From Eubacteriales bacterium (GTDB lineage Bacteria > Bacillota > Clostridia > Oscillospirales > UBA644): a stretch of 64,000 nucleotides of DNA. The position numbers and the translations under genes are program-made. Below, piece after piece: positions 28,674 to 54,282 of the stretch; within the stretch, counting starts at the first letter, position 1; each line of letters opens with the position of its first letter. The DNA lies in NCBI GenBank assembly GCA_045543655.1, contig JAZPXN010000035.1, positions 955 through 64,954 of the forward strand, written 5' to 3'. Below the pieces are notes generated by a model. That model searched no databases, had not been told where the DNA came from, and saw only the letters and a list, made by a program, of their open reading frames with translations.

Positions 28674-28678
28674 CCGTT

Positions 28679-30201: not shown

Positions 30202-30205
30202 TCCA

Positions 30206-30823: not shown

Positions 30824-30851
30824 CCAAGATTTAAACAAAGGAGATACAATC

Positions 30852-35085: not shown

Positions 35086-35117
35086 AGAAGACGAAGCCTC
35101 TTAAGGCTCCGTCTTCT
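35086..35117 (-). terminator. Rho-independent terminator closing the tubulin-like operon
   Basis: 13-bp stem (one mismatch) agaagacgaagcc/ggctccgtcttct, 24 nt after the stop at 35141. On the minus strand it is followed by T-rich CTTTTTGTTTCAGTTTTT. Confidence 0.7.
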
Positions 35118-35140
35118 TTGCTTCATGAAATTTCGGGGGA

Positions 35141-38100: not shown

Positions 38101-40468
38101 GATTATATCCGTTATCCCGGGGGACGTCGCAATCACCCAGGATTTTCCAGAGAATCCCGTTGAAATCGCCGGCTTTTTGCAGCTCTTCGTATTCCTTCAG
38201 GTTTGCATTGGACAAAATCGCGCAGGTCTCTTCCATGGAGATTCCCCCGGCGCTGGCCTGGACGAGAATCTTATGCAGAGCATCCTGCTTCCGGCTTTTT
38301 TCCACCGGGATGCGGAGCAGCTGCTCCGATTGCCATAGCCCGTTGATATTGGCGGCGTAATAATCCCGCAGAAGATAGGGCCGGGAAAAGACCATCACCA
38401 GAGCAGGACGGTCGGAGGTCATTGCCGCATAACGGCGGATCACGGCGGGAAGATTATCTTCTCCGTCAAAAGCAACGATCACGTTGTAGTGATCCGGATT
38501 ATACAACGGCGTATTGAAGAACAGCTGATTCTCCGGATTCGCAAAAAAGCCGTTGTTTGCGTTGGAATGGACACTTTCCCGGAAATCGCCGAAGGGGATC
38601 CGCTTGTCGGCGAAGAGGGAAACGGTTTCCGCGCCGAAGGAGACGGCGTAATCCGAGATATTGACGAGCACGCCCAATTCCTCCACCGCCATAGCGGACT
38701 GAGGAAGGACGATTTTGCCGTTCTCGTCGGGGCGGCCTTCAAAATCGTAACAGCAGACGGTGGTGGCAGGGGAATAATCCATGGCGTCCGCCGTCTTGAA
38801 TCCGGCGGAAAGCAGGTTTTTCAAGACCCGATCCAGCCCGGGGGCGCGGGAATCGTCAAAGCAGACGTATTTGATCTGCTTCGAGGTATAACGAACCCGA
38901 AACGCATCGTTCTTACAGGGATCGCCGGTCTTCGAGCGGCTGGATTTACTGCTGTTGCGGGCACGCAGGGCAGCTTCCTCCCGCACGTTGCGAAGATTCG
39001 TATCGAAAAGGGACATCTGCCGGGGATACTGATTGACGGAATTCAGCACGTCAACGAAGATCACCGTATCGATCAGGCAGGAAAAAGCGCTGTGATTTTT
39101 CTCAAAATCAGCAGAACAAAGATAAGGAAGATCCGTGACCAGAATACTGCAATCGTCAATACGGACCCGATCGATGTTGCTCCTCTCGCCGCTGACCGCA
39201 CAGACGTTCCAGACAGGATGATCCAGGGAAATCCCGGAATCGTCCACGGCGTCGGCGGTGACGGCACTCCCCGGATAAAGACTGTAAAGCTCTTCCATGG
39301 CCTGGGTCACGTATCCGGCCACCGCGTGGATCTGAACGTTGTCGTTACAGACGAAGACCACGTTGTCCCCGCGGGCGAGAACGGTAGAGAGGTATCTCAG
39401 AAAATAGGCAGAAAACTCAGAGAAGAACCCGCCGTTCACGATCACGCCGGTAGGAACCTCCCGCCCTTCGCCCTCGTGAACCGATTTTTTATCGTGCTTG
39501 ATCCCAAGGGAGTGCAGATCGTTGCGGACGATGACGTCAAGGCACTTGATATAGCCGGGCTTTGCGGGATGGGGATTGCGCTGATCCCCCTCGATCCCGT
39601 CGGCGATCATCCGGGTGACCGGAAGACAGTCGGTGGTGGAAATCTCCGAGGAATTCCGAAGATCCTCCAACTGACAGCGGAAGAAGTTTTTAAACAGCTT
39701 CCGGCACTGGTTGTTGACCTCCTCTACGTCCACGCTGTGATCCGCCGTCTTGGGCGGAACCTTCTGAAGCTCGGGGCATTTCGACTCCACGTACTCCAAG
39801 CCCCCCAGGAAAAACCACGCCTCGTACAGCGGAAGGAGGGTCAGCATGGGATAGAGATACCCGGCGTCAAAGATCTGAGAAAGAATGCCGTAAGGAATCC
39901 ACGCCGCCCCAAAGAAAATGGGGAGCTGATAAACAAGGAACAGCACGGCGTACAGCGCAGAGAGGGTAAGACAGAGAAATTTCAGGATCTTCCCGACGAA
40001 GAACCAGTATTCCTCTTTGAAAAACCGCAGAATCGCCCGTTCGATCTTCTGAAGCAGGGTAAAATCCCCGTTCTTCCCCCGGGGCATGGAGAGATCCTTT
40101 CCGGCCAACCCCATGCGGACGAACCGCAAAAGGAACCAGAAGAGAAGCCCGATCCCAAAATTGAGAAGAATGGCGAAGAACACCGAAACGGCGTAATCAA
40201 TACGGGCGTAGGTGGTGAAAAATCCTGCGATCCGCGTCAGCAGAGGCCAGGAAGTGATGGCATAGAACAGATCCTTCAGGGCGGTCATCACGATGGCAAC
40301 GACGATAAAATAGACCACGGTGAACAGCAGAATCCGAAATCGCTTATCGGAGATCTCGTTTTTCTTATCCTTCCGGAAGGAAAGGAATTCCAGAAGCAAC
40401 GGGATCGCCATCAGACAAACCAAAGCGATCATCAGAAAAACTCTCAGCAAAAGCCACAGTATTTCCAT
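35141..40468 (-). CDS. 1775-aa polytopic membrane protein: N-terminal TM block, large cytoplasmic region, zinc ribbon, DA1-like peptidase-like module, C-terminal transglutaminase-like Cys protease domain
   Basis: AGGAG RBS. About 6 hydrophobic helices in aa 1-225. Zinc ribbon CDTCDFCGK...MCRECAAKL (aa 1182-1212). ...LVRELSHVWQIKHLPNLEEGLAEGL... at aa 1300-1325. Transglutaminase-like triad context KAVCEGYA (Cys1579, codon 35732..35734), GGGHAWN (His1615), YYIDTTWDD (Asp1630). Confidence 0.85.
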   Translation of the reverse strand: MEILWLLLRVFLMIALVCLMAIPLLLEFLSFRKDKKNEISDKRFRILLFTVVYFIVVAIVMTALKDLFYAITSWPLLTRIAGFFTTYARIDYAVSVFFAILLNFGIGLLFWFLLRFVRMGLAGKDLSMPRGKNGDFTLLQKIERAILRFFKEEYWFFVGKILKFLCLTLSALYAVLFLVYQLPIFFGAAWIPYGILSQIFDAGYLYPMLTLLPLYEAWFFLGGLEYVESKCPELQKVPPKTADHSVDVEEVNNQCRKLFKNFFRCQLEDLRNSSEISTTDCLPVTRMIADGIEGDQRNPHPAKPGYIKCLDVIVRNDLHSLGIKHDKKSVHEGEGREVPTGVIVNGGFFSEFSAYFLRYLSTVLARGDNVVFVCNDNVQIHAVAGYVTQAMEELYSLYPGSAVTADAVDDSGISLDHPVWNVCAVSGERSNIDRVRIDDCSILVTDLPYLCSADFEKNHSAFSCLIDTVIFVDVLNSVNQYPRQMSLFDTNLRNVREEAALRARNSSKSSRSKTGDPCKNDAFRVRYTSKQIKYVCFDDSRAPGLDRVLKNLLSAGFKTADAMDYSPATTVCCYDFEGRPDENGKIVLPQSAMAVEELGVLVNISDYAVSFGAETVSLFADKRIPFGDFRESVHSNANNGFFANPENQLFFNTPLYNPDHYNVIVAFDGEDNLPAVIRRYAAMTSDRPALVMVFSRPYLLRDYYAANINGLWQSEQLLRIPVEKSRKQDALHKILVQASAGGISMEETCAILSNANLKEYEELQKAGDFNGILWKILGDCDVPRDNGYNLYDYFEFDSRREFGKDGVFVAEDKVRLRKHGTLYDYVKGRNMIRLVTPKAELLLPIPKDRITQNFIVGQNMLYDGNVYVINNLDPESGKIYVSRVTGGRNNVSYQYLPDREYYVHWSSDADRVYPTKHMTLGAGDDVRVEDVYLAVYRRPMEVLTKGYTPINHRTLALNGADALPYEDLTCEGREDAFRQTYRRYGRIVPEEAVCSSDTILSGKGSCVSSENGALVMSLKMTGSFGENAPRIASLAAAMLHELMRSVFPSVADSVAVCPVLPEGTDLDVPTAIRTRLPKAFCRGYSAEPGCVELLIIEDCPSDIGVISVLMSSGDHVLRTLFDPICKYLNWYSAAEEKSPYLYYGGDAEPACFDFAGLTKLANLLCDENYEIQFVPIEEVALCDTCDFCGKRYPKGPDVTALPDGRKMCRECAAKLVGNHKRVLKEHLDRARIFLESSYGISLDNDYEFCFESTVNIVNSLRQHPDFRRRGADLPLKSYVDEKKKVHVEYELPSANLSELLVRELSHVWQIKHLPNLEEGLAEGLPALVGIQYLRFLGHDGLASARSTYYESNGSLSGEGYRKLVRELLANPQYKNNPFLYLSEYSGGSEKPVVRVLTPRVIGAGEYGKPYVPTTPDRTTDGSVPYFYYARLSLERQALYDAMLDGIRDFAEVIPAEGGVTSADVDTVSECIAFDHPELFWYKIAQLRGSEIRFWYGATATEAEEIRRRIDEVVPKYLDGITDAMSAYDVALRMHVKLISSVDYDTVSLNREKAAGGPKLEEIDRLRSIYGVFLDGKAVCEGYARALQYLLQKCGVECAEAAGNIIKDTGELGGGHAWNIIKIDGDYYYIDTTWDDSSNTVQTVKSNDLGFDYFCITEEELLRTRDLKMCPLEMPKCEATKANYFYHNGYVLETYDLNKIRAIAQIAIENKADSFSFKCTTREVYETALNKLCADGKDGYDLLKVLSKTDKKLDVNRFRYGWNKNLRTVTFKFQRK

Positions 40469-40486
40469 ATTGTCGGTACTCCTTTC

Positions 40487-42748
40487 TCAGCGTTCGTAGA
40501 TCTTCCGCAAGAATTCGTCGTCAATGATCGAATAGATCTCACGGTTTCCGTCTTCGCAATAGGCCTTGGTGTAGTCGATTTTTTCCTGATTGGAGGGACG
40601 GCCCGCATCACAGTGGGAGCATTCCATATCCTCCAGAATATTTTCGACCGTCTCCCGCCATTCCTTCAGCTTCCCCAGATGATGGCTCAGCTTCGCATCG
40701 GCAATGCGGCAGCAATCCCGATAAAAATCCACGTCCAGAACGTATTCGTAAACCCAGCGAAGGGAAGGAATATGCTTTACGAAAAGATCGTCGAAGGCCC
40801 GGACGGCGGCCTTGTTTTTATTGATCACTTCATCCGAGAGCTTCACCAGCTCCTTCCAAAGCTTTTCCATCTTGCGCAAATGGAAATACCGGGCGATGCC
40901 AAATCCCACCCCGAGAAGGAAATAGGGAACCAGCACGAACAGGACGGCGATCAGGGGGCCCTGAGGACTGGAGTGGATCATCTCCCACTGAATCATAAAA
41001 TAGGGAACCAAAAATACGGCCAGCGCAACGGCAAGAACGATCAGCATCGCCATCAGCTTCTTCAGGCTGTTTTCAATTTTTTGCACCCGGTTGGCAAACC
41101 ATTTGCACTGCTCCTGAATATTGGTCATGGCGATATCCCGCCCGACGCTGAACTTCAGGTATTCGCAGAGAACGGTTTCGTAGGCTCTGCGGGAGGACCG
41201 CTCCAGGAAGGAAACGGGGGTCTTTTCGGCAGAAGGGGCCTTGCTTTCGCTGTACATATAATCGTTCTTGACCGCATCCTCGTCGTCGAGGCGGAGAACG
41301 CTCCGCTTCCGCAACACCGGAGGCAGATTGTTCTTCGACCGACCGGAATAATTGGCCATGCGGAGCTCCACGTGGTTGCTCAGCTCCCGCAGGAAATTCA
41401 GATGATGGTTCGCAAGACCGTCGGACCGCTGAATATAATCCTTCGCAGACGAACCGAAGGCGTCGGTCTTATATCCGTCGCCGCCCCCGTCGAAGGGCTT
41501 ATAGGCCTCTTCGTTGAACCAGGGCGCAACGTCTCCCGTTTCCAGCTCCATCCGGACGGGATCGTTCATTTTTGCCGTGTCATGCCTCCCGTTCGCGTCG
41601 GCCTTCTGCTCGGTCTTGGGATCGATGACCTTCGAAACGTATTGAGAGCTCCGGTTTCCGGCCGCGTCCAGACCAAACTTTTCGTGGGCAAAACGGCGGG
41701 GAGCGGGAGCCAGACCGAGGGAGGTATAATCGTCCTTCAAGGCGGCGGCTTCCCCTTCAAACCGGGCGTAGGTCTGCTTTTTCTTCAAAAGCATGCAGAA
41801 CAGCTCGTTCCACTGTTCGGAAGAGGGATTTACGATTTTCTTTCCGGGCAGATTCAGAGAATTCCCCTCCGACTTCCCGTAAACACTGCCGGTGCGGACG
41901 CACTCCAGCAGAAGGCATTGCAGAAGCAGATTCCGCTTCGTGCTCATTTCTTTGTTCGTTCTGCCGCCCCGGCGGTCGGTGACGAATTCGGAAACCACCG
42001 CCTTTCCGGCGCAATCCGACTCGTAAATACGGTCCACGGCGTAGGTCAGATCCATGGAAGCGCGGTCGGGGAGCACGTATTCCCCGGAATCGGGATCGGC
42101 GGAAATTCCCCGGAGCATAAGACCGATCTTTTCCCGATACAGGTTGCGGACGAAGGCAAGGCGGGGAGAAGCGTCGGCCGCCAAAGCAGACTCAAGAGCC
42201 TCTCCGGGATGGGCTTCCGCCAGACGGGCCATCTCCAAAGGATCGGGAAGCTCCAGCATCTTTAAAAGGACGTCCCGCTTCTGCCGGTCAAGATAGGTAT
42301 ATCCGTCGTCGTCGATCACGTTGTTGCCCACGTCGTCCGCGTCGATGCGGTTTTGCTCCATCAGAATCAGCATCCGCTCCACGGGACAGCGGCCGATGGA
42401 GACCAACGTCTCGTAGATCGTTTCCACGAGGAACCGGACGCACAGGCGGCGCAGCATCCCGTAGGCCGCGTTTTTATCGACCCGGTCGGGGCAGTTTTGC
42501 ACAAGCGTAACGTATTCCGGCATTTCCAGAAGATCGACGTAGACGACGAGATTGTAATCGTTGCCCATTTCCTTGTAATTGTCGATCATTTCGCCCAGCT
42601 TTTCCGCATGGGAAAGAAACCCCTCCTCCATCAGCGAAGAGAGGGATACGTCGATCTGGGTCAGCTTACGGAATTCCTTCTCAATTCCCAGAACGTCCAT
42701 CCGGCCGCCGACCGCGTTGGGGGACGTATTGATAAATACGGTATGCAT
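40487..42748 (-). CDS. 754-aa hypothetical protein with a TM hairpin near the C-terminus
   Basis: Trimmed from TTG 42775 to ATG 42748 (MHTVFINTSPNAVGG...), with GGAGGA 9 nt upstream. Two adjacent hydrophobic helices: LMAMLIVLAVALAVFLVPYFMI and PLIAVLFVLVPYFLLGVGFGIA. No recognisable catalytic motif. The stop lies 18 nt before the next start. Confidence 0.8.
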   Translation of the reverse strand: MHTVFINTSPNAVGGRMDVLGIEKEFRKLTQIDVSLSSLMEEGFLSHAEKLGEMIDNYKEMGNDYNLVVYVDLLEMPEYVTLVQNCPDRVDKNAAYGMLRRLCVRFLVETIYETLVSIGRCPVERMLILMEQNRIDADDVGNNVIDDDGYTYLDRQKRDVLLKMLELPDPLEMARLAEAHPGEALESALAADASPRLAFVRNLYREKIGLMLRGISADPDSGEYVLPDRASMDLTYAVDRIYESDCAGKAVVSEFVTDRRGGRTNKEMSTKRNLLLQCLLLECVRTGSVYGKSEGNSLNLPGKKIVNPSSEQWNELFCMLLKKKQTYARFEGEAAALKDDYTSLGLAPAPRRFAHEKFGLDAAGNRSSQYVSKVIDPKTEQKADANGRHDTAKMNDPVRMELETGDVAPWFNEEAYKPFDGGGDGYKTDAFGSSAKDYIQRSDGLANHHLNFLRELSNHVELRMANYSGRSKNNLPPVLRKRSVLRLDDEDAVKNDYMYSESKAPSAEKTPVSFLERSSRRAYETVLCEYLKFSVGRDIAMTNIQEQCKWFANRVQKIENSLKKLMAMLIVLAVALAVFLVPYFMIQWEMIHSSPQGPLIAVLFVLVPYFLLGVGFGIARYFHLRKMEKLWKELVKLSDEVINKNKAAVRAFDDLFVKHIPSLRWVYEYVLDVDFYRDCCRIADAKLSHHLGKLKEWRETVENILEDMECSHCDAGRPSNQEKIDYTKAYCEDGNREIYSIIDDEFLRKIYER

Positions 42749-42770
42749 ATGCAAAACTCCTCCGAGGACT

Positions 42771-42807
42771 CCCAAAGGGAGGTGTCGGAAAACACCTCCC
42801 TTTTGGG
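42771..42807 (-). promoter_or_regulatory. Strong intercistronic hairpin between the tubulin-like gene and the next gene
   Basis: 14 contiguous base pairs (aaagggaggtgt/acacctcccttt core) with a 6-nt loop, extended by 3 G-C pairs across a 1-nt bulge. No T-run follows on the minus strand. It lies in the 71-nt gap 42749..42819. Confidence 0.6.
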
Positions 42808-42819
42808 GTCAGGTTAACT

Positions 42820-45800
42820 TCAGATAATATCGGTGCCTTCAGCGTCGCCGGAATCGGTAGTTCCGTCGTCGTCAATGGCCAGCTTCAGCTCCTGGAAGTC
42901 CTTGATCCAGGTATACTTGAGATACCGGTTCTTGCCCTTCATGGAGCTCTTCTGATAGATCCGGTGGCAGAGACGGACCTTGGCTTCGGCGATCTGATCC
43001 TCACCGCGGATCATATCGTAGTGGTTGGCCACGTCTTCCATCAGCGCGGCAAAGCCACCGATCAGATTGCTGTAGATATCGTCGTTGCAATCCTTGGACA
43101 TGGCGTAACGGGTGGTCATGGTGACGGCGTTCAGATCGTTGTCCACCAGAAGCCCCTTCAGCAGCTTGGTGCCCACGTAAGTGGTCATATCGGTCAGATC
43201 AGCCTCGTATTCGGCTTCCAGCTCCCGGACGATGGTTGACTCGAAGGAGGAGCTGTTGCGCAGAGCTCTTACCAGACGGGTGATATCGGTCTTGCCGATG
43301 GGTCTGCCATTCTCCTCCAGAGCCACGACCTTGGGCTGACGGTTGCCGTAAGCGTCCTTCCGGTATTCGATCAGACAGAACCTGTCGTGATCGATCACCA
43401 GCCGGCCGTAAGCCACGGCGCGCCAGAAGGCCTGGTAGAATTTCCGGTTGGCCTCTTCCTGCTTTTCGGCGCTGACGTAGGGCAGGAATTCGTGCCAGGT
43501 CTTATCCAGGTGGGGAGAATCCACGTCGGAGCCCCTGGCGATCATATTGGTGATCACGGCGTCGTAGTGCTTATAGTAATCCCCGCCTTCGGTTTCCCGG
43601 AACTTGCTGACGGCAGAGGCGGTGACGCCGTAGATGGAGGTATAGCAATACAGCTCGTTTTCGCCGTAGCGCTCGTGAGCGGCAGTGGCCTTATTGGCGC
43701 CGAGATTTGCCTCCAGAGCGGGGCAACGGGCCACGGTGTTGGGATGGAAGCCCCAGAAGGTCAGCTCCGTCTGGATCGGCATATACAGCTTCTCCCCGTC
43801 GGAGGTGGTCATCCACACGGCGCTGTCCGTATCGGGCTCAAAGCCGTCGTCGGATTTCTTCACCACGACGTCGGGCTGAGCAATGAGGAAGGGCTGGGCC
43901 TTCTGAGAAAGGCGGTTGCGATATTCCACCACGGCAGCCTGATGGCGGACCATCGCCTTTTCCGCATCGTTGTTGACGGCAAAGGGATCCTCGGATTCGG
44001 GAGCCCGGTCCTGCTGATACTTATAATCGCTCTCCTTATAGATCGCGCTGATAATATCGAGATCCACCAGGTCTCTGCATTCGGAGACGATGGTCTTGGT
44101 GAAGGAGGAGATGATCTTGTCGTGGAAGGCAGAGATGATGGATTCCTTCAGGTATTCCGCATTCTTGGGAACGTTGGGACGGACGCGGGAGCAGAACTTC
44201 CCGTAAATGGAATCGATGACGTCCCGGTTCAACTCGTGATTCCGGCCGGTCAGATCAAGGTTGAGAGAATCGTAGACCTCCTGCTTGTGTCCTTCCCGGG
44301 CGTAAACGTAAAGGGTCTTGCTGGCGTCTTCCTCGGTGGAGGCCACGTTCTCTGCGATCTCGGTCTCAAGCCGTTCCAGAAGAGCGGGGAAATCCCGGAA
44401 CATCTTCTCGATTTCGGCGATGAGAACGGTCAGACGGTCGTTCAACTTGGTCAGGACCTTCTGCTTCAGGATCGCGACCTCGTAATCCTTGCACAGGATC
44501 GCGTTGGCGGTGTTATAAAGCTTATACTTCCGGATGAAGTGCTGGATCTCGCTCTTGCTGATATGCATACCGACCTGAGACCAGTATTCCTCCAGCGTTT
44601 CGTTCTTCCGGGTCTTTTCGATATTGAAGGAGACCTTCTGATCCCCCTTCAGGGCCTTGGAGCGGCTCTTGGCGGGAGCAAGCATGCTCAGCTCGGTTTC
44701 AATGCGGCGGGCCAGCTTATACAGAAGATACTTGGCGGCAATGGGATGAACGAAGAATTTCTTGCCGTTGAAGTCTTCCTTCACGAACAGGCCGTAAAGG
44801 GTCTCGACGTCGTTCATATTGACCGACCCCATATCCATGGGAACGAAGGAACGGACGATGGAATCGGCGTAATCCTCACAGTTCTCGTCAAACTGATCGA
44901 GGACCTTGGCCACGATCCCCTCTTCCTTGGCGCGGATGCCCTTAAGGTCCTGCACGATGGTAGCGGGGAAGTTTTCGGGGTTCTCCGGATCGGCCAGATT
45001 TCTGCCCAACCGGGAAACCTTTCCGGTATCGCCGTTGGCCTCCACGGAAGCGCTGACGGCGTTATCCAGAAGGGATACGAAGCCTTCGATCTTGCAGGAG
45101 GGGATGACGATCATCTCACTGCCGTCGGCGGAGGGCTCCCGGGTCTCGTTGAAGATATCGTTGCGGATGGAGACGAAGAGACGGTCTTCCTTCCCCACGT
45201 GATCGGTCTTGGAGGTCTTCTCGTCGAAGATCTCGATAAACTTATCCCGGCGGCTGACGGGCTTGGGATCAAGACCGTCCTTTTCGGCGAGCTTCGCCTC
45301 TTCTTCCAGGGCGTCGATCTCCGCGTCGATGCGGTTCCATCCCTCGTTGACCGAATCCTTAGCGGCCCGCAGGGCACAGTACTCGGTCACGACGTCTCTG
45401 GGATATTCGGCCTTGGAGGTGCCGCAGGATCCGTAGACCGGCTCCTTGCTGGAATTGAAGGCGCGGAAGAGGTTGTCTTCCACCGAGTACAGCTCGGAAT
45501 ACATGGGAGCGTACAGCTGCATGTATACGATCTGGGCCACGATCTTTTCATATTCACCGATGCTGGTGAAGGCAGCGCCGCCCTTATCCACGTCGTCGAT
45601 AAAGAAGGCGTTATCAAAGACCTGACGGACGCCGGGCTTGCGGCTGTCGAAAAGATCCTGAATAATAATGGGGCGTTCGGGCAGGAAGTTCTTGCGAACC
45701 ACCTTGTTGATGGCGTTCAGCTCCCGGATGGCGGCGTAGGCGTTGGCGTAATAGTACAGCTTCTTCCGGGCGTTGTTCTTGGCGTTGGGGATGGTGCGCA

Positions 45801-46389
45801 GGAACACGTCGGGCAGGAGCAGGATGCCGCGGATGGTAGCCTCGCAGTTCCGTTTTTCAAAGAACTGACGGAGCCACAGAGCAACCTGGATGAACATCCC
45901 GGAGCCGGTACCGCCGGCCAGGGAAGAAACCAGCATCACGCGGAGCTTTTCCGGCTTGCCGGACTTGTTATGGAACACCTTCTCAATGGCGTTTTCCAGC
46001 TCCTGGATCTTACCGGTGGACATGGTATCCATAAAAGCAATACGGGATTTGATGCGGATCTCGGAGGCGCCGTCGATCATCGACTCGTCTCCGAAGGTCT
46101 CGTCGGAGGTACACCAGTTTTTGGTGTCCTTATTGGCATAAAGCGCCAGATATTCGCGGATCTTCCGATCGTCGCAGGTGGGGATAACGGGAATATCGGT
46201 ACCGCTGTCGGTGATATTCGTGTTATCGTTCTGATTGGTATCCATGACGGCGCAGGTGACCTTACCGTCGTTGATGGCAATGGAATTCTTCCGCAACAGC
46301 ATTGCCACGTTGTTCACGACCCGGCTGCCGGTGCCACCCAGACCGATGAGAACGGTCTGCGTGTCCATCCGAATCAAATCTTGTTTCAT
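42820..46389 (-). CDS. Tubulin/FtsZ-superfamily GTPase-like protein with about 850-aa C-terminal extension (1189 aa)
   Basis: Trimmed to ATG 46389 (MKQDLIRMDTQTVLIGLGGTGSRV...), with GGAGG 8 nt upstream. T1-like loop GLGGTGS (46324..46344). Tubulin-signature-like SLAGGTGSG (45898..45924). Long extension, then an acidic tail ...AIDDDGTTDSGDAEGTDII. Confidence 0.85.
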   Translation of the reverse strand: MKQDLIRMDTQTVLIGLGGTGSRVVNNVAMLLRKNSIAINDGKVTCAVMDTNQNDNTNITDSGTDIPVIPTCDDRKIREYLALYANKDTKNWCTSDETFGDESMIDGASEIRIKSRIAFMDTMSTGKIQELENAIEKVFHNKSGKPEKLRVMLVSSLAGGTGSGMFIQVALWLRQFFEKRNCEATIRGILLLPDVFLRTIPNAKNNARKKLYYYANAYAAIRELNAINKVVRKNFLPERPIIIQDLFDSRKPGVRQVFDNAFFIDDVDKGGAAFTSIGEYEKIVAQIVYMQLYAPMYSELYSVEDNLFRAFNSSKEPVYGSCGTSKAEYPRDVVTEYCALRAAKDSVNEGWNRIDAEIDALEEEAKLAEKDGLDPKPVSRRDKFIEIFDEKTSKTDHVGKEDRLFVSIRNDIFNETREPSADGSEMIVIPSCKIEGFVSLLDNAVSASVEANGDTGKVSRLGRNLADPENPENFPATIVQDLKGIRAKEEGIVAKVLDQFDENCEDYADSIVRSFVPMDMGSVNMNDVETLYGLFVKEDFNGKKFFVHPIAAKYLLYKLARRIETELSMLAPAKSRSKALKGDQKVSFNIEKTRKNETLEEYWSQVGMHISKSEIQHFIRKYKLYNTANAILCKDYEVAILKQKVLTKLNDRLTVLIAEIEKMFRDFPALLERLETEIAENVASTEEDASKTLYVYAREGHKQEVYDSLNLDLTGRNHELNRDVIDSIYGKFCSRVRPNVPKNAEYLKESIISAFHDKIISSFTKTIVSECRDLVDLDIISAIYKESDYKYQQDRAPESEDPFAVNNDAEKAMVRHQAAVVEYRNRLSQKAQPFLIAQPDVVVKKSDDGFEPDTDSAVWMTTSDGEKLYMPIQTELTFWGFHPNTVARCPALEANLGANKATAAHERYGENELYCYTSIYGVTASAVSKFRETEGGDYYKHYDAVITNMIARGSDVDSPHLDKTWHEFLPYVSAEKQEEANRKFYQAFWRAVAYGRLVIDHDRFCLIEYRKDAYGNRQPKVVALEENGRPIGKTDITRLVRALRNSSSFESTIVRELEAEYEADLTDMTTYVGTKLLKGLLVDNDLNAVTMTTRYAMSKDCNDDIYSNLIGGFAALMEDVANHYDMIRGEDQIAEAKVRLCHRIYQKSSMKGKNRYLKYTWIKDFQELKLAIDDDGTTDSGDAEGTDII

Positions 46390-46431
46390 AGGGGGTACCT
46401 CCAAAACTGTATTTGTATATTTTTTTTTTGC

Positions 46432-49068
46432 TTACTGATTTGCGGGAAGCGCGTAGGCAACGATCATCCCGTTGGCGATGACCGCAATGCCGTCCACCAG
46501 GGTATCCTTCGTCATATCGGTGAAAACGTAATACATTTCATCCGACGGACGGTCGATGGTGGCGATGGGTTCCACGGCATCCTCGTCGTAGGGGCTTAGG
46601 ACCTGAATCTTCAGACTGTTGTCCTGCACGTATTCCGCCACCTTTGCGGGATGATCGAACCGGTTGCGAAGATTAAACTGCACGGGAGTGATCTCGCCGC
46701 GGTACCAGACCTGGCCGTGGCAAAGAATACTGCCCCCGTCCCCGGCCGAAATGGATACTCCGTTCTGGAGCGGAATGATCTTGGTCTTCATGGTGGGGAT
46801 CAGACGGAAGCGGTACTTGAATTTGTTATACTGATCCAGCGCGATGGGCTTAAAGGTTCCGATCTCGTGATAACGGTTTCCGCGGGTGCCGGAGTGGGTC
46901 AAGTCCCCGAGATACAGCGTGGCGTTTTTCAAAAACCTGGGCTTATTGACCGTCGTATAGACCTGGGCGACGGCATAGGCAAGAATCAACACCTCCAGAA
47001 GCAGCGGAAGCACCACGTTCAAAAGGAGATACGGAACGCTTTCCTGCCGGACGTCGAGGACGTTTTCGGCGGTGCCGTAGGGATGCTGAAGCGTGACGGT
47101 AACGTCGTCCCCTTCCAGAAGGAAGAAGTACTGGAACCAATGCCAGAGCCAATTGACGCCCTTCAGCCCGTAATCCTTCTCGGAGTAGGGAGTGACGGTG
47201 ATCACGCCGTCGTTGGCGACGGAAACGTCGTATTTCAGATCCTCGTGGGATTCGTTGAACAGAACGGAAATCCCCTGCTCCACGTCGGCCTTCAGCAGCT
47301 GCTTGCCGTCCTTGGTGACGTAAAAGGAAACGCCCTTGGTATTTCCGTGAAGCTCGGTCTTTTTGACGCTCTCGTTATGATCCACGGGGATCACGTCGAA
47401 ATCAGCCAGAAGCACCGTATAGGTCTCGGTCGCGGAAATATTGCCGTTAACGGTGCAGGTCACGTCCACGTTATAGCTGTCCACGGTGCCTGCGGGAGCA
47501 ACGCCGGCGTTGGGCAGATAGACGATCCGACCGTCGGCGTCCACGGAGGTCACGCCGCTGTTGCCGTTCAGGGAAACGTTCACCTGGGGATTCAGCGCCT
47601 TGACGGCTTCGGGATCGGTCATCTCCACGCCGTCGGCAAAAACGGTGAAGCGGATCGACAGATCCTTGTTGGACGGAAGATCGCTCAGGCTGACGCTCTT
47701 CACGGCGCCGCCGAAGGAGGGAACCAGCGTATAGACGACCCTGCGCTCGGTGGGGGTAAATTTTTCGGAATATTCGATGGGATGGAATCCGTCGATGATG
47801 ACGGCGGCGGTGATCTTGGTCTCGATGTTTTTCAGCTCGTAATCCTTGAGCTCCATCTCTTTTCCGTCCTCGGTGCGGACGACCTTACCGTCCTCCGTAA
47901 CGGAGACCTCAAACCGGGTTCCGGGAGGAAGCAGGGAGGGATCGACCTCCACCTCCGTTCCCATTTCGTAGATCTTACAGGAAACGGTGACCTTATCCCC
48001 TTCGGCAACGTCGTCGAGCTGTGCGGGATCGGAGATCTCCACCCCGTTGACGGCAATCACCATCCGGGTCTCAAGGGCAGGCTCGAACAGGATGACCAGG
48101 TCCTTCAGGTCCACGTCGCGGTCGAAGGTGATCTTATAGGTGCCGGCACCGATGATATTTTTGGAATCCCCCAACAGGAACGCGCCGCCTACCAGATCCC
48201 GATGACCGGGATACCGGAGCGAAACGCTGCGGCTGACGGGAATGCCGATCTCGCTGCTGTAGACCGCCTTTGAGATCTTCGCCTCGGACTTCTGAGACAG
48301 AACGGCGATATTCAGCAAGGGGATGGTGGAAGAGACCTGAACGGTCTTTCCGTCAATCTGCTTGACGTCTCCGGTCCCGAGCCGGGTGCGGCCGGAGATC
48401 TTGTCGGCCATTTCGGACATAGCGCCGATAATCCCGGAGGCGTTGGAGGCGGAGTAAGTATAAATTCCCTTCGCCGCGTCTTCCTTGGGCGATACCACGT
48501 CCCCGATCCCGAGGAAGGTGATCTGGGCGTTACTGCCGTTGGGCATCTTGGCGGAAACGTACTCCTCGAATTTCTCGTTTAAAAATTTTTCCGCTCGGGA
48601 AACGGTCATACCGTACATTTCGTTAAAGCTGCCGTCGGTGATAACCACCAGCCAGTACTGGGTATTGGGGTTCGTATCCTTCACGTCGGTCAACTTCTTG
48701 AAGGCGGTCTCCACCGAATCGTAGGGCGTGGAGGCGGCGTCGTCGTGATCGCGGATGGAATCCACGGATCCCTGAATGCCGCCGGAGGACAGATCCAACT
48801 CCTTCGGATCTCCCCGCCGTCCGTTGTCACATTCGGACATATAGGTGATAAACAACTGATCGTCGCTGTTCAGCAACCCGGCGAAGGCCTGGGTGGCGTA
48901 ATTGGCGTAAGCCCAGCGGTCGCCCCCGTTCATACTCGTAGAATCGTCGTATACCAGAGAAACAACCTTCCGGATATACATCGACTCGGCGGAGGCAAAG
49001 ACGGGCAGGCTCACAACCACCGCCGCCGTCAGCACCAGCGCAAAAACGGAGAACAGTATTTTCTTCAT
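46432..49068 (-). CDS. Secreted vWA-domain protein with beta-rich ectodomain, single TM anchor and about 170-aa cytoplasmic tail (878 aa)
   Basis: Signal peptide MKKILFSVFALVLTAAVVVSLPVFASA. MIDAS motif VVSLVYDDSTSM (DDSTS = 48934..48948) ... WLVVITDGSF. TM VPYLLLNVVLPLLLEVLILAYAVAQVY (about aa 678-704). GGGAGG RBS. Confidence 0.85.
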   Translation of the reverse strand: MKKILFSVFALVLTAAVVVSLPVFASAESMYIRKVVSLVYDDSTSMNGGDRWAYANYATQAFAGLLNSDDQLFITYMSECDNGRRGDPKELDLSSGGIQGSVDSIRDHDDAASTPYDSVETAFKKLTDVKDTNPNTQYWLVVITDGSFNEMYGMTVSRAEKFLNEKFEEYVSAKMPNGSNAQITFLGIGDVVSPKEDAAKGIYTYSASNASGIIGAMSEMADKISGRTRLGTGDVKQIDGKTVQVSSTIPLLNIAVLSQKSEAKISKAVYSSEIGIPVSRSVSLRYPGHRDLVGGAFLLGDSKNIIGAGTYKITFDRDVDLKDLVILFEPALETRMVIAVNGVEISDPAQLDDVAEGDKVTVSCKIYEMGTEVEVDPSLLPPGTRFEVSVTEDGKVVRTEDGKEMELKDYELKNIETKITAAVIIDGFHPIEYSEKFTPTERRVVYTLVPSFGGAVKSVSLSDLPSNKDLSIRFTVFADGVEMTDPEAVKALNPQVNVSLNGNSGVTSVDADGRIVYLPNAGVAPAGTVDSYNVDVTCTVNGNISATETYTVLLADFDVIPVDHNESVKKTELHGNTKGVSFYVTKDGKQLLKADVEQGISVLFNESHEDLKYDVSVANDGVITVTPYSEKDYGLKGVNWLWHWFQYFFLLEGDDVTVTLQHPYGTAENVLDVRQESVPYLLLNVVLPLLLEVLILAYAVAQVYTTVNKPRFLKNATLYLGDLTHSGTRGNRYHEIGTFKPIALDQYNKFKYRFRLIPTMKTKIIPLQNGVSISAGDGGSILCHGQVWYRGEITPVQFNLRNRFDHPAKVAEYVQDNSLKIQVLSPYDEDAVEPIATIDRPSDEMYYVFTDMTKDTLVDGIAVIANGMIVAYALPANQ

Positions 49069-49107
49069 GCGTTATCCTCCCAATTTCGGAAACACTTATA
49101 ATTATAT

Positions 49108-49136
49108 ATTATACTACAAAATATTATATTTGTCAA
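49108..49136 (-). promoter_or_regulatory. Consensus sigma-A promoter of the four-gene operon
   Basis: Minus strand: TTGACA (49131..49136), 17-nt spacer, TATAAT (49108..49113). It sits in a strongly AT-rich 200-nt intergenic region, about 40 nt upstream of ATG 49068. Confidence 0.6.
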
Positions 49137-49276
49137 TATTTTTTCGTTTCTTTTCGCAGAGGGGCCACCAAAAAATCGACGGAATTTTTGTGCATACTGA
49201 CATAATAAACAGCCGCGCGAGGGGAATTTCGCACGGCTGGCAGGGAAAAGTTGTTAAATTATTGTAAAATCCCGGC

Positions 49277-53150: not shown

Positions 53151-53756
53151 TTACCGTTTCACACCGTCGAAGGCCGGGTTATACATATAAAAATTCTTGC
53201 AGTTCAGTTTTTCCTGCACGAGGCGGGCGCATTCGGCGAAGCGTTGATAGTGGACGATCTCCCGCTCCCGGAGGAATTTGATGGGATCCCGCACGTCGGG
53301 GTCGTCGACGAGGCGCAGGATATTGTCGTAGGTCACCCGGGCCTTTTGCTCGGCACCGAGAGATTCGGCGATATCGGCCAGAACGTCCCCCTTCACGTTG
53401 AGCGTGGCGGCGGTGAAGGCTTCGCCGGAGGAGGCCTGGGGATAAACGCCGGTGGTATGCTCCACGAAATATTCCGAGAAGCCCTGCTTTTTCAATTCCT
53501 CTTCGCTGAGGCCCTTGGTCAGCTGATGGACGATGGTGCCCACCATTTCAAGATGGGAAAGCTCTTCGCTGCCCACGTCCGTGTATACGGCCTTCAGCTC
53601 GGGGTAGGGCATGGAATAGCGCTGGGACAGATACCGCATAGCCGCCCCCGCTTCCCCGGAAGGGCCGCCGTACTGGGCGATGATGAATTTGGCCATGGCG
53701 GCGTTGGGCGTCTTGATCTTCACGGGGTATTGCAATTTTTTCTCATAGACAAACAT
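53151..53756 (-). CDS. cotJC: Manganese catalase-family spore coat protein CotJC
   Basis: Trimmed to ATG 53756 (MFVYEKKLQYPVKIKTPN...AQYGGPSGEAGAAMRYLSQRY...EELSHLEMVG...). Confidence 0.9.
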   Translation of the reverse strand: MFVYEKKLQYPVKIKTPNAAMAKFIIAQYGGPSGEAGAAMRYLSQRYSMPYPELKAVYTDVGSEELSHLEMVGTIVHQLTKGLSEEELKKQGFSEYFVEHTTGVYPQASSGEAFTAATLNVKGDVLADIAESLGAEQKARVTYDNILRLVDDPDVRDPIKFLREREIVHYQRFAECARLVQEKLNCKNFYMYNPAFDGVKR

Positions 53757-53779
53757 AATTCTCAAATTCCTTTCCCATA

Positions 53780-54028
53780 TCAATCAAGGTCCCACGGCCA
53801 GGGATCGCAGATCCATTGCCAGCGGCTCCCGGAATTGGGGCAACGGTGGGTCAGCATCCCGTAGGATTCGTTGTATTTTTTCTTCAGCTCTTCTGCGGCG
53901 GCGGAATATTCCCGATGCGCCTTCAGGGCGCTTTCGCAATTGGGATGGGTGTCTAAAAACAGCGCCGTTTCGTGAGCGGCAAACTGTTGCTCGCTGAGGC
54001 GGCGAAGCAATTTTTCACGGTCGTTCAT
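53780..54028 (-). CDS. cotJB: Spore coat protein CotJB
   Basis: ...LSEQQFAAHETALFLDTHPN...WQWICDPWPWD... Confidence 0.9.
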   Translation of the reverse strand: MNDREKLLRRLSEQQFAAHETALFLDTHPNCESALKAHREYSAAAEELKKKYNESYGMLTHRCPNSGSRWQWICDPWPWDLD

Positions 54029-54282
54029 CTTGCACTCCCTCCCCGGAAGGGCAGATCCAGTTCGCAGAACAAGGTTCCGCGTTCCAGAGCTTTTTCCGGC
54101 GCATAAAGATTACGGAAAACCTGCATGGGGGCGTAGGTCATGCCCAAAGGCAGAGAATCTACCACGCTCAGATCGCAGGAGCATCCCCCGTCGGGCTTGG
54201 GCGGCTGAGGCTTGGGGAACAGAGCGGCGGATTCAACGGCGCCGTCGGTTTCCTCTTCGATATTGAAATAATCCGGGATCAT
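54025..54282 (-). CDS. cotJA: Spore coat-associated protein CotJA
   Basis: Only the last 85 aa of track ORF 54025..54606 (MIPDYF...LGMTYAPMQVFRNLYAPEKALERGTLFCELDLPF...). ATGA overlap with cotJB. Confidence 0.8.
   Translation of the reverse strand: MIPDYFNIEEETDGAVESAALFPKPQPPKPDGGCSCDLSVVDSLPLGMTYAPMQVFRNLYAPEKALERGTLFCELDLPFRGGSAR

What the first reader, a model, noticed from the sequence alone, without database searches (positions are those of the whole stretch)
42820..46389. Tubulin-signature GTPase domain fused to about 850-aa extension with an acidic C-terminal tail
- Both hallmark glycine loops are readable directly: GLGGTGS at aa 16-22 (46324..46344) and VSSLAGGTGSGMF at aa 154-166 (core 45898..45924).
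- These match the tubulin/FtsZ signature [SAG]-G-G-T-G-[ST]-G.
- The protein continues for about 850 residues with no other motif I recognise.
- It ends in a very acidic, Gly/Thr/Asp-rich tail, AIDDDGTTDSGDAEGTDII (42823..42879).
- That tail is reminiscent of tubulin E-hooks and of the FtsZ C-terminal peptide, both of which recruit partners.
- The size and the lack of an obvious FtsZ-type C-terminal domain set it apart from FtsZ, TubZ and BtubA/B.
Basis: partly seen in the sequence, partly recalled or inferred. Interest (0 to 1): 0.8.

Follow-up and report, generated by a model that had tools for sequence, protein, structure and literature searches.

The report
FtsZl1 tubulin-like GTPase membrane operon
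This gene encodes a real but very divergent relative of tubulin and FtsZ that belongs to a family (FtsZl1, Pfam Tubulin_2) first described by computer analysis in 2010; here it sits in the family's usual four-gene membrane operon, and nobody has yet tested what the family does.

Summary
ORF 42820..46389 (-) encodes a 1189-aa protein carrying GLGGTGS, AGGTGSG and an acidic tail at the stated coordinates. The N-terminal 350 aa match Pfam PF13809 Tubulin_2 (E=3e-50). An AlphaFold model (pLDDT 84) retrieves only CetZ, tubulins, BtubB and FtsZ from the PDB. Both glycine loops are present in 119 of 120 homologue clusters.

It is not a new kind of protein. It belongs to the FtsZl1 family of Makarova and Koonin (2010): an FtsZ-like domain, a helical stalk and a C-terminal domain, encoded next to a vWA protein. 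Their supplementary table already lists the same four-gene cassette in 'Bacteroides' capillosus and Ruminococcus lactaris: vWA, FtsZl1, 'B5' and 'B12'.

In the window the cassette is a single transcription unit (49136..35084, - strand) in a core chromosomal region of a gut Oscillospiraceae-type Clostridium. The cassette is kept in about 40 related loci. The 'B12' partner carries a transglutaminase-like domain with a conserved catalytic triad.

The acidic tail is specific to one clade: a variable acidic linker ending in a conserved DII. It is absent, or basic, elsewhere in the family.

The function is untested. My best inference is a GTP-regulated scaffold under the membrane. It would couple a surface vWA protein to a cytoplasmic cysteine enzyme.

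The parts
49108..49136 (-). Promoter-like site TTGACA-17-TATAAT upstream of gene A, the likely start of the four-gene transcription unit
   Evidence: 12 of 12 match to the sigma-70 consensus. It lies between the terminator of the upstream pyrophosphatase gene (49239..49210) and the start of A at 49068. This is a consensus match only.
46432..49068 (-). Gene A, 878 aa: signal peptide, extracellular vWA domain with MIDAS motif DDSTS (aa 41-45), about 500 aa of beta-rich Ig-like region, one TM helix (about aa 682-705) and a cytoplasmic tail of about 170 aa
   Evidence: Pfam VWA_2 E=0.008 and Big_5, both below threshold. MIDAS and TDG motifs are invariant in 17-51 homologues. The weak top PDB profile hits are vWA domains. 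Hydropathy. It corresponds to the COG2304 vWA gene of the cassettes listed by Makarova and Koonin.
42820..46389 (-). Gene B, the finding: 1189-aa FtsZl1/Tubulin_2 protein, cytoplasmic, no TM segment (coordinates include the stop codon)
45349..46353 (-). Tubulin_2 (FtsZ/tubulin-fold) GTPase domain, aa 13-347. Includes T1 loop GLGGTGS (46324..46344) and T4 signature loop AGGTGSG (within 45898..45924)
   Evidence: PF13809 E=3.1e-50 over the full model. Foldseek top 50 PDB hits are all tubulin superfamily: CetZ2 4b45_A E=1e-5, CetZ 3zid, tubulins, BtubB 7quq_B, FtsZ 5zue. Motifs present in 119 of 120 clusters.
45472..45480 (-). Invariant E304-D305-N306 at the start of a helix after a flexible loop (aa 296-300). 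Candidate counterpart of the T7/H8 catalytic acidic residue
   Evidence: Invariant in alignment A1. Loop 296-300 has pLDDT below 50 and is followed by helix 298-313. The assignment is an inference from position only and was not verified on coordinates.
44332..44958 (-). Helical stalk region, aa 478-686, with helices of 38, 54 and 20 residues (coiled-coil-like)
   Evidence: DSSP on the AlphaFold model. Consistent with the extended coiled-coil described for FtsZl1.
42880..43902 (-). Family-specific C-terminal alpha/beta plus helical domain, aa 830-1170, with invariant FWG, Y..Y...YG and PH....W....P motifs
   Evidence: Invariant columns. Only 129 representative clusters among 1.84 billion proteins carry it, always at the C-terminus of 1100-1330 aa proteins. 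8 of 8 distant carriers tested have an N-terminal PF13809. No PDB fold match.
42823..42879 (-). Disordered acidic tail, aa 1171-1189, ending in DII
   Evidence: pLDDT below 50 for aa 1176-1189. 8 acidic and 1 basic residue in the last 25. DII terminus conserved in 25 of the 38 closest clusters and absent beyond.
40487..42775 (-). Gene C, 762 aa from a TTG (alternative ATG at 42748): poorly conserved cytoplasmic N-terminal region of about 570 aa, TM hairpin (aa 577-627) and Cys-rich C-terminal 135 aa. Counterpart of family 'B5' of Makarova and Koonin
   Evidence: Hydropathy. No profile or PDB match. Conserved in position in all sufficiently long loci at 25-40% identity. 'B5'.
35141..40468 (-). 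Gene D, 1775 aa: N-terminal polytopic membrane region (4-6 TM, aa 1-225), about 900 aa with no match, Zn ribbon (aa 1182-1211; 36836..36925), degenerate zincin-like motif RELSH (about aa 1302) and C-terminal transglutaminase-like cysteine-enzyme domain (aa 1426-1733; 35270..36193). Counterpart of 'B12'
   Evidence: Transglut_core E=4e-4. NCBIfam MAG6410 TGase-related 2e-19, far below its 450-bit cut-off. PDB 9crn_A E=3.4e-19. Cys, His, Asp and both CxxC pairs conserved at 90% or more in 35 homologues. Hydropathy. [quoted passage not shown]
35084..35119 (-). Terminator-like hairpin (16 pairs followed by a T-run), 22 nt after the stop codon of D

Best explanation
Gene B is a member of the FtsZl1 family (Pfam Tubulin_2), the most divergent branch of the FtsZ/tubulin GTPase superfamily. 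It is the only nucleotide-binding protein of a conserved four-gene operon that encodes a membrane complex.

Shown:
- The tubulin fold, with intact T1 and T4 GTP-binding loops.
- A helical stalk and a family-specific C-terminal domain.
- Strict linkage to three partners. A is a surface-exposed vWA protein with one TM helix and a cytoplasmic tail. C is a TM-hairpin protein. D is a polytopic membrane protein with a Zn ribbon and a transglutaminase-like Cys-His-Asp domain.

Inferred mechanism:
- B binds GTP and self-assembles on the cytoplasmic face of the membrane, held there by the cytoplasmic parts of A, C and D.
- The vWA domain of A binds an extracellular or cell-wall ligand through its metal site.
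- B's nucleotide-controlled assembly couples that event to the positioning or activation of D's cysteine enzyme, which cleaves or cross-links proteins.
- In the window's subclade, the disordered acidic tail ending in DII probably serves as a docking peptide for one of the partners.

The physiological role is not established. It could be envelope or membrane remodelling, or a conflict or defence response.
For: Family membership:
- PF13809 E=3e-50.
- PF13809 is the FtsZ-like family of Makarova and Koonin (PMC9871819).
- The architecture matches their description.
- The same cassette sizes and order appear in their Additional file 5: BACCAP_04124/04123/04122/04121 at 861/1183/658/1435 aa, and RUMLAC_01529-01526.

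Fold: pLDDT 84.3. All 50 listed PDB hits belong to the tubulin superfamily, and the top viral hits are phage tubulin and FtsZ.

Conservation: both GTP loops are in 119 of 120 clusters.

Operon:
- One promoter-like site and one terminator-like site flank the genes, with intergenic gaps of 18-70 nt.
- A-B-C-D are in the same order and strand in every locus long enough to show it, about 35 of 49.
- Two relatives whose C-terminal domain is only 25-29% identical also keep the cassette.

Sole NTPase: none of A-D has a Walker A motif.

Topology: signal peptide and TM segments. Cys content is 0.46% in the extracellular part of A against 2.5-3% in the soluble part of D.

Enzyme: the TGase triad is conserved at 90% or more.

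C-terminal domain: it is found only in this architecture. Residues 833-972 are confident in the full-length model but not when the GTPase domain is removed. This suggests the region packs against the GTPase domain.
Against: - No biochemical or genetic data exist for any FtsZl1 protein in the literature I could search.
- GTP hydrolysis and polymerisation are assumed from the fold. Makarova and Koonin could not identify T6, H7 or T7 in this family and raised the possibility that it does not form filaments. My T7 candidate (E304-D305-N306) rests on conservation and position only.
- Foldseek TM-scores are modest, at 0.35-0.50 on the target.
- Physical contacts between B and A, C or D are inferred from gene linkage alone.
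- The topology of D is uncertain, because an odd or even number of TM helices changes the side. TGase homologues such as 9crn_A and the MAG6410 lipoprotein family may be extracellular.
- The vWA assignment of A is below threshold in Pfam.
Confidence: 0.55

Rival explanations
1. Conflict or defence system. The cassette is a reduced relative of the tubulin- and vWA-containing 'GAP1-N2 GTPase-centric' systems that Kaur et al. 2020 predicted to be regulated counter-invader systems. The vWA protein senses an invader at the surface. The tubulin-like protein forms an NTP-dependent higher-order assembly that sets a threshold. The transglutaminase-like peptidase is the effector.
For: - Kaur et al. describe firmicute systems combining tubulin plus coiled-coil proteins with membrane vWA proteins, and interpret them as conflict systems (PMC7159879).
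- The cassette sits in different chromosomal neighbourhoods in different genomes.
- In 10 loci a gene with a Card1-like endonuclease domain follows D on the same strand (PF09002 E=4e-4, below threshold).
- In L051 a TIR-TIR-Zn-ribbon protein and a TGase-kinase protein lie directly upstream.
- Transglutaminase-like peptidases are recurrent effectors in such systems.
Against: - The defining P-loop GTPases (GAP1 and DO-GTPase) are absent from the window's cassette and flanks.
- There is no PADLOC hit.
- There are no mobile-element or other defence genes in the window. The flanks are the pyr operon, a glycosidase, pyrophosphatase and cotJ.
- The extracellular vWA region of A is among the best conserved parts (60-70% column identity, MIDAS invariant). 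That is unlike a fast-evolving invader sensor.
- All four proteins diverge in parallel, as expected for long-term co-inheritance.
Confidence: 0.28
2. Housekeeping membrane or envelope-remodelling cytoskeleton, as Makarova and Koonin proposed. The complex shapes membranes, vesicles or the cell surface. The vWA protein anchors it to the wall, and the TGase-like domain remodels envelope proteins. No sensing or immune role is involved.
For: - Makarova and Koonin proposed this from the membrane-associated partners.
- Three of the four proteins here are membrane proteins.
- The context is core chromosomal, and a consensus vegetative promoter lies upstream.
- The extracellular domain is conserved.
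- The cassette is retained over deep divergence within gut Clostridia.
Against: - The family is small and patchy. Only 129 clusters at 50% identity carry the C-terminal domain among 1.84 billion representatives.
- Genomic location is variable, and nuclease, TIR and sigma/anti-sigma genes are occasional neighbours.
- There is no direct evidence of any membrane-shaping activity.
Confidence: 0.3
3. Sporulation-specific machinery. The complex acts during spore formation, with the transglutaminase-like domain cross-linking coat proteins as Tgl does in Bacillus.
For: Sporulation genes lie within 10 kb in several loci: cotJA and cotJC in the window, spoIIID in L001, spoIIR in L050 and spoIID in L054.
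Against: - Sporulation genes are frequent in these genomes. By my own rough estimate, not a computed figure, finding one among about 17 flanking genes is expected by chance more often than not.
- The neighbouring sporulation genes differ between loci and are not in the operon.
- The promoter-like site is a perfect vegetative sigma-70-type consensus, not a sporulation-sigma type.
Confidence: 0.05
4. The glycine motifs are incidental and the domain belongs to an unrelated Rossmann or P-loop family.
For: - PF00091 itself is below its gathering score, at 24.4 bits against 33.
- The best NCBIfam hit is a spurious ThiF-like match at E=0.01.
Against: - PF13809 matches at E=3e-50 over the full model.
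- The fold search returns only tubulin-superfamily structures, over 325-375 aligned columns.
- There is no Walker A motif.
- Both loops are conserved in 119 of 120 clusters.
Confidence: 0.01

Closest known systems
FtsZl1 (FtsZ-like 1) family, Makarova and Koonin 2010; Pfam PF13809 Tubulin_2. In particular BACCAP_04123 of 'Bacteroides' (Pseudoflavonifractor) capillosus ATCC 29799 and RUMLAC_01528 of Ruminococcus lactaris
   Same: - N-terminal FtsZ-like GTPase domain with the GGTGSG loop, a long helical or coiled-coil middle and a C-terminal domain with no known relatives.
- Length of about 1100-1200 aa.
- No recognisable FtsZ_C or Tubulin_C domain.
- The vWA gene lies upstream, and the 'B5' and 'B12' genes lie downstream in the same order.
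   Different: - In the window and its relatives D is about 1735-1780 aa and ends in a transglutaminase-like domain. The two B12 proteins listed in 2010 are 1418-1435 aa and are annotated only as zincin plus Zn finger. I did not have their sequences, so I could not check whether they lack the TGase module.
- The zincin motif here is degenerate (RELSH).
- The acidic tail ending in DII is specific to the window's subclade.
Tubulin- and vWA-containing GAP1-N2 GTPase-centric systems (Kaur, Burroughs, Iyer, Aravind 2020, eLife 9:e52696)
   Same: - A firmicute tubulin-domain protein fused to a C-terminal coiled coil.
- A membrane protein with an extracellular vWA domain.
- Other components rich in TM segments.
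- Predicted assembly of cytoskeleton-like complexes at the membrane.
   Different: - No GAP1 or paralogous P-loop GTPase, and no YtkA-vWA protein.
- One tubulin gene instead of two. The exception is the L032 variant, which has a second, degenerate copy.
- A giant TGase-bearing membrane protein that is not mentioned there.
FtsZ, CetZ, tubulin and BtubA/B (canonical cytomotive tubulin-superfamily proteins)
   Same: - The fold of the nucleotide-binding region, and loosely of the following domain. Foldseek aligns 325-375 columns, at 10-16% identity and target TM-score 0.35-0.50.
- The T1 and T4 loops.
- In the window's clade, a disordered C-terminal linker plus a conserved terminal peptide, formally like the FtsZ linker and C-terminal peptide or the tubulin E-hook.
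   Different: - Three times longer.
- Below threshold on PF00091, with no PF12327 or PF03953 hit.
- T6, H7 and T7 are not identifiable by sequence.
- Not in a division gene cluster.
- Encoded with membrane partners.
- Polymerisation has not been demonstrated.
TubZ and PhuZ (plasmid and phage tubulins)
   Same: Divergent bacterial tubulin-fold GTPases. Phage tubulins are the top BFVD structural hits.
   Different: - Chromosomal context, with no TubR/tubC-like partner or phage genes.
- No PHROGs match.
- Far larger, with membrane-protein partners.

Membership tests
FtsZl1 / Pfam PF13809 Tubulin_2 | Significant match to the family profile over its full length | tested here: met
   PF13809 E=3.1e-50, 171.9 bits against a cut-off of 27, aa 13-347 on model positions 1-355 of 356. 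PMC9871819 equates Tubulin_2 with the FtsZ-like family of Makarova and Koonin.
FtsZl1 / Pfam PF13809 Tubulin_2 | Architecture: N-terminal FtsZ-like domain, extended coiled-coil or helical region and a mostly helical C-terminal domain, about 1000 aa or more | tested here: met
   AlphaFold secondary structure shows helices 478-515, 612-665 and 667-686, then an alpha/beta plus helical region to aa 1167.
FtsZl1 / Pfam PF13809 Tubulin_2 | GGGTG(S/T)G-type signature GTP-binding loop retained | tested here: met
   AGGTGSG at aa 158-164. Present in 119 of 120 homologue clusters.
FtsZl1 / Pfam PF13809 Tubulin_2 | Predicted operon with a vWA-domain protein | tested here: met
   Gene A lies immediately upstream on the same strand. 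The MIDAS DxSxS motif is invariant. Pfam VWA_2 is below threshold (E=0.008) and the PDB profile hits to vWA domains are weak. The same position is held by the COG2304 genes in the 2010 table.
FtsZl1 / Pfam PF13809 Tubulin_2 | No detectable counterpart of the FtsZ or tubulin C-terminal domain, or of T6-H7, at sequence level | tested here: met
   No PF12327 or PF03953 hit. PF00091 aligns only to model positions 3-140 of 190. At fold level, alignments span 325-375 columns, so a loose structural counterpart may exist.
Tubulin/FtsZ superfamily (fold level) | Tubulin/FtsZ fold of the nucleotide-binding domain | tested here: met
   Foldseek on a pLDDT-84 model. All 50 listed PDB hits are CetZ, tubulins, BtubB or FtsZ, with best E=1.1e-5 and probability 1.00.
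Tubulin/FtsZ superfamily (functional level) | GTP-dependent head-to-tail polymerisation, with a T7-loop acidic residue completing the neighbouring subunit's active site | not testable with these tools
   There is only a candidate, the invariant E304-D305-N306 after a flexible loop. No coordinates or multimer prediction were available.
Canonical FtsZ | PF00091 above threshold, plus the FtsZ_C domain (PF12327) | tested here: not met
   PF00091 scores 24.4 bits against a cut-off of 33. There is no PF12327 hit at E of 0.1 or less.
TubZ/PhuZ-type plasmid or phage tubulins | Encoded on a plasmid or phage with partition or phage genes | tested here: not met
   The flanks are the pyr operon, a glycosidase, pyrophosphatase, cotJ, prmA and mgsA. 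There is no PHROGs hit.
GAP1-N2 GTPase-centric conflict systems (Kaur et al. 2020) | TRAFAC-clade P-loop GTPase(s) and the GAP1 component in the neighbourhood | tested here: not met
   None of A-D has a Walker A motif. No GTPase family appears among the flanking genes scanned.
GAP1-N2 GTPase-centric conflict systems (Kaur et al. 2020) | Tubulin plus coiled-coil protein together with a membrane protein carrying an extracellular vWA domain | tested here: met
   Genes B and A.
Known anti-phage defence systems (PADLOC-DB 2.0) | Match of any component to a defence-system profile | tested here: not met
   The only hit is a spurious PDC-M16B match at E=0.0055 in the coiled-coil region of B. A, C and D have none.

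The most novel reading that the evidence does not exclude
The cassette is an outside-in signalling or immune machine built on a tubulin-like polymer. Ligand or invader binding to the surface vWA protein triggers GTP-dependent assembly of the FtsZl1 protein under the membrane. That assembly switches on the transglutaminase-like cysteine enzyme of the giant membrane protein. In some genomes it would also switch on a Card1-like nuclease or TIR protein. This would be a bacterial counterpart of integrin-to-cytoskeleton coupling, or of polymer-based immune signalling, and would give the FtsZl1 family its first function.
Probability: 0.2. Interest if true: 0.8.

Novelty: new member of a known kind. 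Interest (0 to 1): 0.35.

Why it matters
FtsZl1/Tubulin_2 is the most divergent branch of the tubulin superfamily. It was predicted 16 years ago and, as far as the searchable literature shows, has never been studied experimentally. It is unknown whether these proteins polymerise at all.

This window adds no new kind of protein. The analysis does sharpen the picture for one well-populated gut-Clostridia clade:
- A fixed four-gene transcription unit.
- A clear membrane topology.
- A single NTPase.
- A conserved transglutaminase-like catalytic triad.
- A C-terminal domain found only in this architecture, and possibly folding back on the GTPase domain.
- A clade-specific terminal DII peptide.

Cultured carriers exist (P. 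capillosus and R. lactaris, from the 2010 table). The question of what a membrane-tethered, non-division tubulin relative does in bacteria is therefore directly testable.

Tried and rejected
- PADLOC, PHROGs and NCBIfam scans of all four proteins gave nothing meaningful.
- A PDB sequence search with the full-length family profile found no relative, not even FtsZ.
- hhalign of the family profile against E. coli FtsZ aligned only the T4 loop, so it could not locate T7.
- Foldseek of a separate model of aa 350-1189 against the PDB gave no hit better than E=0.096 and TM below 0.15. The extension has no recognisable solved relative.
- Weak Pfam hints were considered and not adopted: CTD9 of ABC-3C systems in B, and DA1-like, DUF6782 and ClpX zinc finger in D.
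- A family profile of D aa 1150-1430 found no zincin in the PDB. The putative HExxH motif is RELSH/RELTH and only partly conserved. I therefore did not confirm the 'zincin protease' label of the 2010 table for this clade.
- The sporulation link was considered and rejected as a base-rate effect.
- A phage or plasmid origin was rejected on context.
- The long + strand ORF 43387..46599 (1070 aa) opposite gene B, and similar antisense ORFs, are treated as shadow ORFs of a GC-rich coding strand. The Pfam and homology evidence lies on the - strand.
- Literature searches for any experimental work on FtsZl1/Tubulin_2 or tubulin-vWA defence systems found only the computational papers.

Full report
**Observation.**
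ORF 42820..46404 on the minus strand is 1194 aa from a TTG. GLGGTGS (aa 16-22), VSSLAGGTGSGMF (aa 154-166) and the tail AIDDDGTTDSGDAEGTDII (aa 1171-1189) are all at the stated nucleotide positions.

**What the N-terminal domain is.**
- Pfam places aa 13-347 in PF13809 'Tubulin like' (Tubulin_2) over the whole model, at E=3.1e-50 and 171.9 bits against a cut-off of 27.
- The classical PF00091 model matches only to the T4/H4 region and stays below threshold (24.4 against 33).
- FtsZ_C and Tubulin_C are not found.
- An AlphaFold2 model built on 30 homologues is confident (mean pLDDT 84.3, pTM 0.69).
- Foldseek against the PDB returns only tubulin-superfamily structures among the 50 listed hits: CetZ2 4b45_A at E=1.1e-5, CetZ 3zid, beta and gamma tubulins, BtubB 7quq_B and FtsZ 5zue.
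- Those hits align over 325-375 columns at 10-16% identity, with target TM-scores of 0.35-0.50.
- Against viral models the best hits are phage tubulins and FtsZ.
- No protein of the operon has a Walker A motif.

The T1 motif G[LIVM]GG[TS]G and the T4 motif [SAG]GGTG[SA]G are each present in 119 of 120 homologue clusters. Both are invariant in the 30-sequence alignment at 37-59% identity.

**What the rest of the protein is.**
- The model shows long helices (aa 478-515, 612-665, 667-686), further helical bundles, an alpha/beta region (about aa 858-1030) and a terminal helical region to aa 1167. Residues 1176-1189 are disordered.
- The C-terminal part carries many invariant aromatic and glycine positions: FWG 878-880, Y916, Y920, G921, P959, H960, W965 and P970.
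- A phmmer search with aa 830-1189 against 1.84 billion representative proteins found only 129 clusters at E of 1e-3 or better. In every full-length hit the match lies at the C-terminus of an 1100-1330 aa protein.
- Eight of eight distant carriers tested have an N-terminal PF13809 domain. This domain therefore exists only in this architecture.
- A separate model of aa 350-1189 found no PDB relative; the best hit was E=0.096 with TM below 0.15.
- Residues 833-972 are confident in the full-length model but fall to pLDDT 41-67 when the GTPase domain is left out. I read this as a sign that the region packs against the GTPase domain. This is an inference.

**The tail.**
- In the window's subclade the last 20 or so residues vary in sequence but are acidic and end in an invariant DII. 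This holds for 25 of the 38 closest clusters; others there end in acidic xDE or ETE.
- Homologues below about 45% identity have no tail. Two have basic K/T-rich repeat tails, in L014 and L046.
- The tail is thus a clade-specific appendage, not a family feature.
- Its layout (disordered variable linker plus a conserved terminal tripeptide) is that of a short docking motif. The comparison with the FtsZ C-terminal peptide is reasonable but untested.

**Surroundings.**
B is the second gene of a tight four-gene unit on the minus strand. The unit is framed as follows:
- A terminator-like hairpin of the upstream pyrophosphatase gene at 49239..49210.
- A 12-of-12 sigma-70 consensus site at 49136..49108.
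- A 16-bp hairpin followed by a T-run at 35119..35084, just after the last stop codon.

The other three genes are:
- **Gene A** (46432..49068, 878 aa). It has a signal peptide and a vWA domain whose MIDAS DDSxS and TDG motifs are invariant in homologues. About 500 aa of Ig-like beta structure, one TM helix and a 170-aa cytoplasmic tail follow.
- **Gene C** (40487..42775, 762 aa). It has no recognisable domain except a TM hairpin at aa 577-627.
- **Gene D** (35141..40468, 1775 aa). It has an N-terminal polytopic membrane region, about 900 aa of unknown sequence and a conserved CxxC...CxxC zinc ribbon. A degenerate zincin-like motif (RELSH) and a C-terminal transglutaminase-like module follow.
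  - That module matches PDB 9crn_A at E=3.4e-19, and its Cys, His and Asp are conserved at 90% or more.
  - Cysteine content is 0.46% in the extracellular part of A and 2.5-3% in the soluble part of D. This suggests the bulk of D is cytoplasmic, which is an inference.

The wider window is ordinary chromosome. It holds the pyr operon at 22.6-32.4 kb on the + strand, glycosidases, pyrophosphatase, a polysaccharide deacetylase, cotJA and cotJC, prmA and mgsA. There are no tRNA, phage or plasmid genes.

**Related loci.**
- More than 500 full-length homologues exist, all unnamed. They come from gut and rumen Clostridia metagenome bins: Oscillospiraceae, Faecousia, Lawsonibacter, Acutalibacteraceae and Ruminococcus.
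- In 49 fetched loci, A-B-C-D occur in the same order and orientation wherever the contig is long enough. The flanking genes differ.
- Two relatives whose C-terminal domain is only 25-29% identical keep the cassette, including a 1738-1739-aa D with a transglutaminase core.
- Some loci add accessory genes that the window lacks:
  - an ECF-sigma-like gene plus a putative zinc-finger anti-sigma gene (11 loci);
  - two YbjN-like paralogues (13-14 loci);
  - an XRE-type HTH gene (8 loci);
  - a Card1-like endonuclease gene after D (10 loci, Pfam below threshold);
  - in L051, a TIR protein and a transglutaminase-kinase protein.

**Comparison with what is known.**
- Makarova and Koonin (2010, PMC2875224) defined the FtsZl1 family. 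[quoted passage not shown]
- They could not identify T6-H7 and noted that these are the most diverged members of the superfamily. The genes usually sit in operons with vWA proteins, and the authors proposed membrane remodelling as the role.
- Santana-Molina et al. (PMC9871819) state that these FtsZ-like proteins are the ones carrying Pfam Tubulin_2.
- Additional file 5 of the 2010 paper lists the very cassette found here. In 'Bacteroides' capillosus it is BACCAP_04124 (vWA, 861 aa), 04123 (FtsZl1, 1183 aa), 04122 ('B5', 658 aa) and 04121 ('B12', 1435 aa).
- Kaur et al. (2020, PMC7159879) later placed firmicute tubulin plus coiled-coil and membrane vWA proteins in 'GAP1-N2 GTPase-centric' predicted conflict systems. 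The defining P-loop GTPases of those systems are absent here.
- I found no experimental study of any FtsZl1 protein.

**How it most likely works.**
Shown: the tubulin fold with intact GTP loops; a single NTPase in a co-transcribed, strictly conserved set of three membrane proteins; an extracellular vWA domain with an intact metal site; and a conserved transglutaminase-type catalytic triad.

Inferred:
- B assembles in a GTP-dependent way on the cytoplasmic face of the membrane, in contact with the cytoplasmic parts of A, C and D.
- This assembly couples ligand binding by the vWA protein to the positioning or activation of D's cysteine enzyme.
- The invariant E304-D305-N306, at the start of a helix behind a flexible loop, is my candidate for the T7/H8 catalytic residue. 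I could not verify it.

Whether the output serves envelope remodelling or a conflict response is open. The conserved extracellular domain, the core chromosomal context and the consensus vegetative promoter favour remodelling. The variable location and the occasional nuclease or TIR neighbours favour a conflict response.

**Verdict.**
The finding is real and correctly recognised as a tubulin-superfamily protein of an unusual type. It is nevertheless a new member of an already described family, in an already catalogued operon type.

The parts I could not find described elsewhere are the transglutaminase-like end of the B12 partner in this clade, the exclusive coupling of the C-terminal domain to Tubulin_2, and the clade-specific DII tail.

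Interest is moderate. It comes from the family being experimentally unexplored, not from this instance being exceptional.

Noticed in passing
L032:4795-7632 (+), between the B and C homologues: One lineage carries a second, tandem paralogue of the tubulin-like gene (945 aa, 33% identical to B). Its T4 loop is degenerate (SLCGAAGSGM instead of GGTGSG), it has no T1 loop and its C-terminus is truncated. It is possibly a non-GTP-binding partner subunit, reminiscent of the two-tubulin firmicute systems of Kaur et al. 2020.
   Followed up: partly
L001:21112-22368, with equivalents in L007, L008, L012, L014, L018, L023, L026, L050 and L051: In 10 loci a gene of about 415 aa follows gene D on the same strand. 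It has a Card1-like endonuclease domain (PF09002, E=4e-4, below threshold; ...ISCKNG motif). It is absent from the window and hints at a defence connection.
   Followed up: partly
L051:639-4586: Directly upstream of the cassette in one locus lie two genes: an 802-aa protein with two TIR domains and a zinc ribbon, and a 506-aa protein combining a transglutaminase core with a protein kinase domain.
   Followed up: no
L001:5054-7232, with equivalents in 11-14 other loci: A recurrent upstream accessory block. It comprises a 295-aa protein with a weak sigma-70 region-2 match, a 92-aa protein with an HxxxCxxC motif (anti-sigma-like by my reading) and two paralogous YbjN-like proteins of about 157 aa. 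It is absent from the window.
   Followed up: partly
L014 and L046, C-termini of the B homologues: Instead of an acidic tail, these homologues end in basic K/T-rich repeats (KKTTKKTTKKTT..., KKSTTKKSTTKK...). The C-terminal appendage of this family therefore changes charge between clades.
   Followed up: partly
L009:4458-9962: Two tandem paralogues of the vWA gene A (924 and 900 aa) precede the tubulin-like gene. L051, L049 and L024 have enlarged A proteins of about 1020-1100 aa.
   Followed up: no
L047:5101-8854: The B homologue stops matching at aa 422 and is followed at once by sequence matching D from aa 932. C is missing. This is a deletion or an assembly artefact in that metagenome bin.
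   Followed up: no
window 22608..32419 (+): A complete pyrimidine biosynthesis cluster: dihydroorotase, carB, pyrK, pyrD, pyrF, pyrE-like and pyrB, with two hydrolase genes interspersed. The long minus-strand ORFs over it (for example 23818..27621, 1267 aa) have no family match and appear to be shadow ORFs. The same applies to the + strand ORFs 43387..46599 and 38489..42265, which lie opposite genes B, C and D.
   Followed up: yes
window 53151..54606 (-): cotJC-like manganese catalase and cotJA spore-coat genes lie about 4 kb upstream of the operon. This shows the organism is a spore former. Different sporulation genes lie near the cassette in L001 (spoIIID), L050 (spoIIR) and L054 (spoIID). 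I judged this a base-rate coincidence.
   Followed up: partly
window 35270..36193 (-), D aa 1426-1733: The transglutaminase-like module of D is homologous over about 310 residues to the solved but apparently undescribed structure 9crn_A ('Transglutaminase-like domain-containing protein', E=3.4e-19).
   Followed up: no
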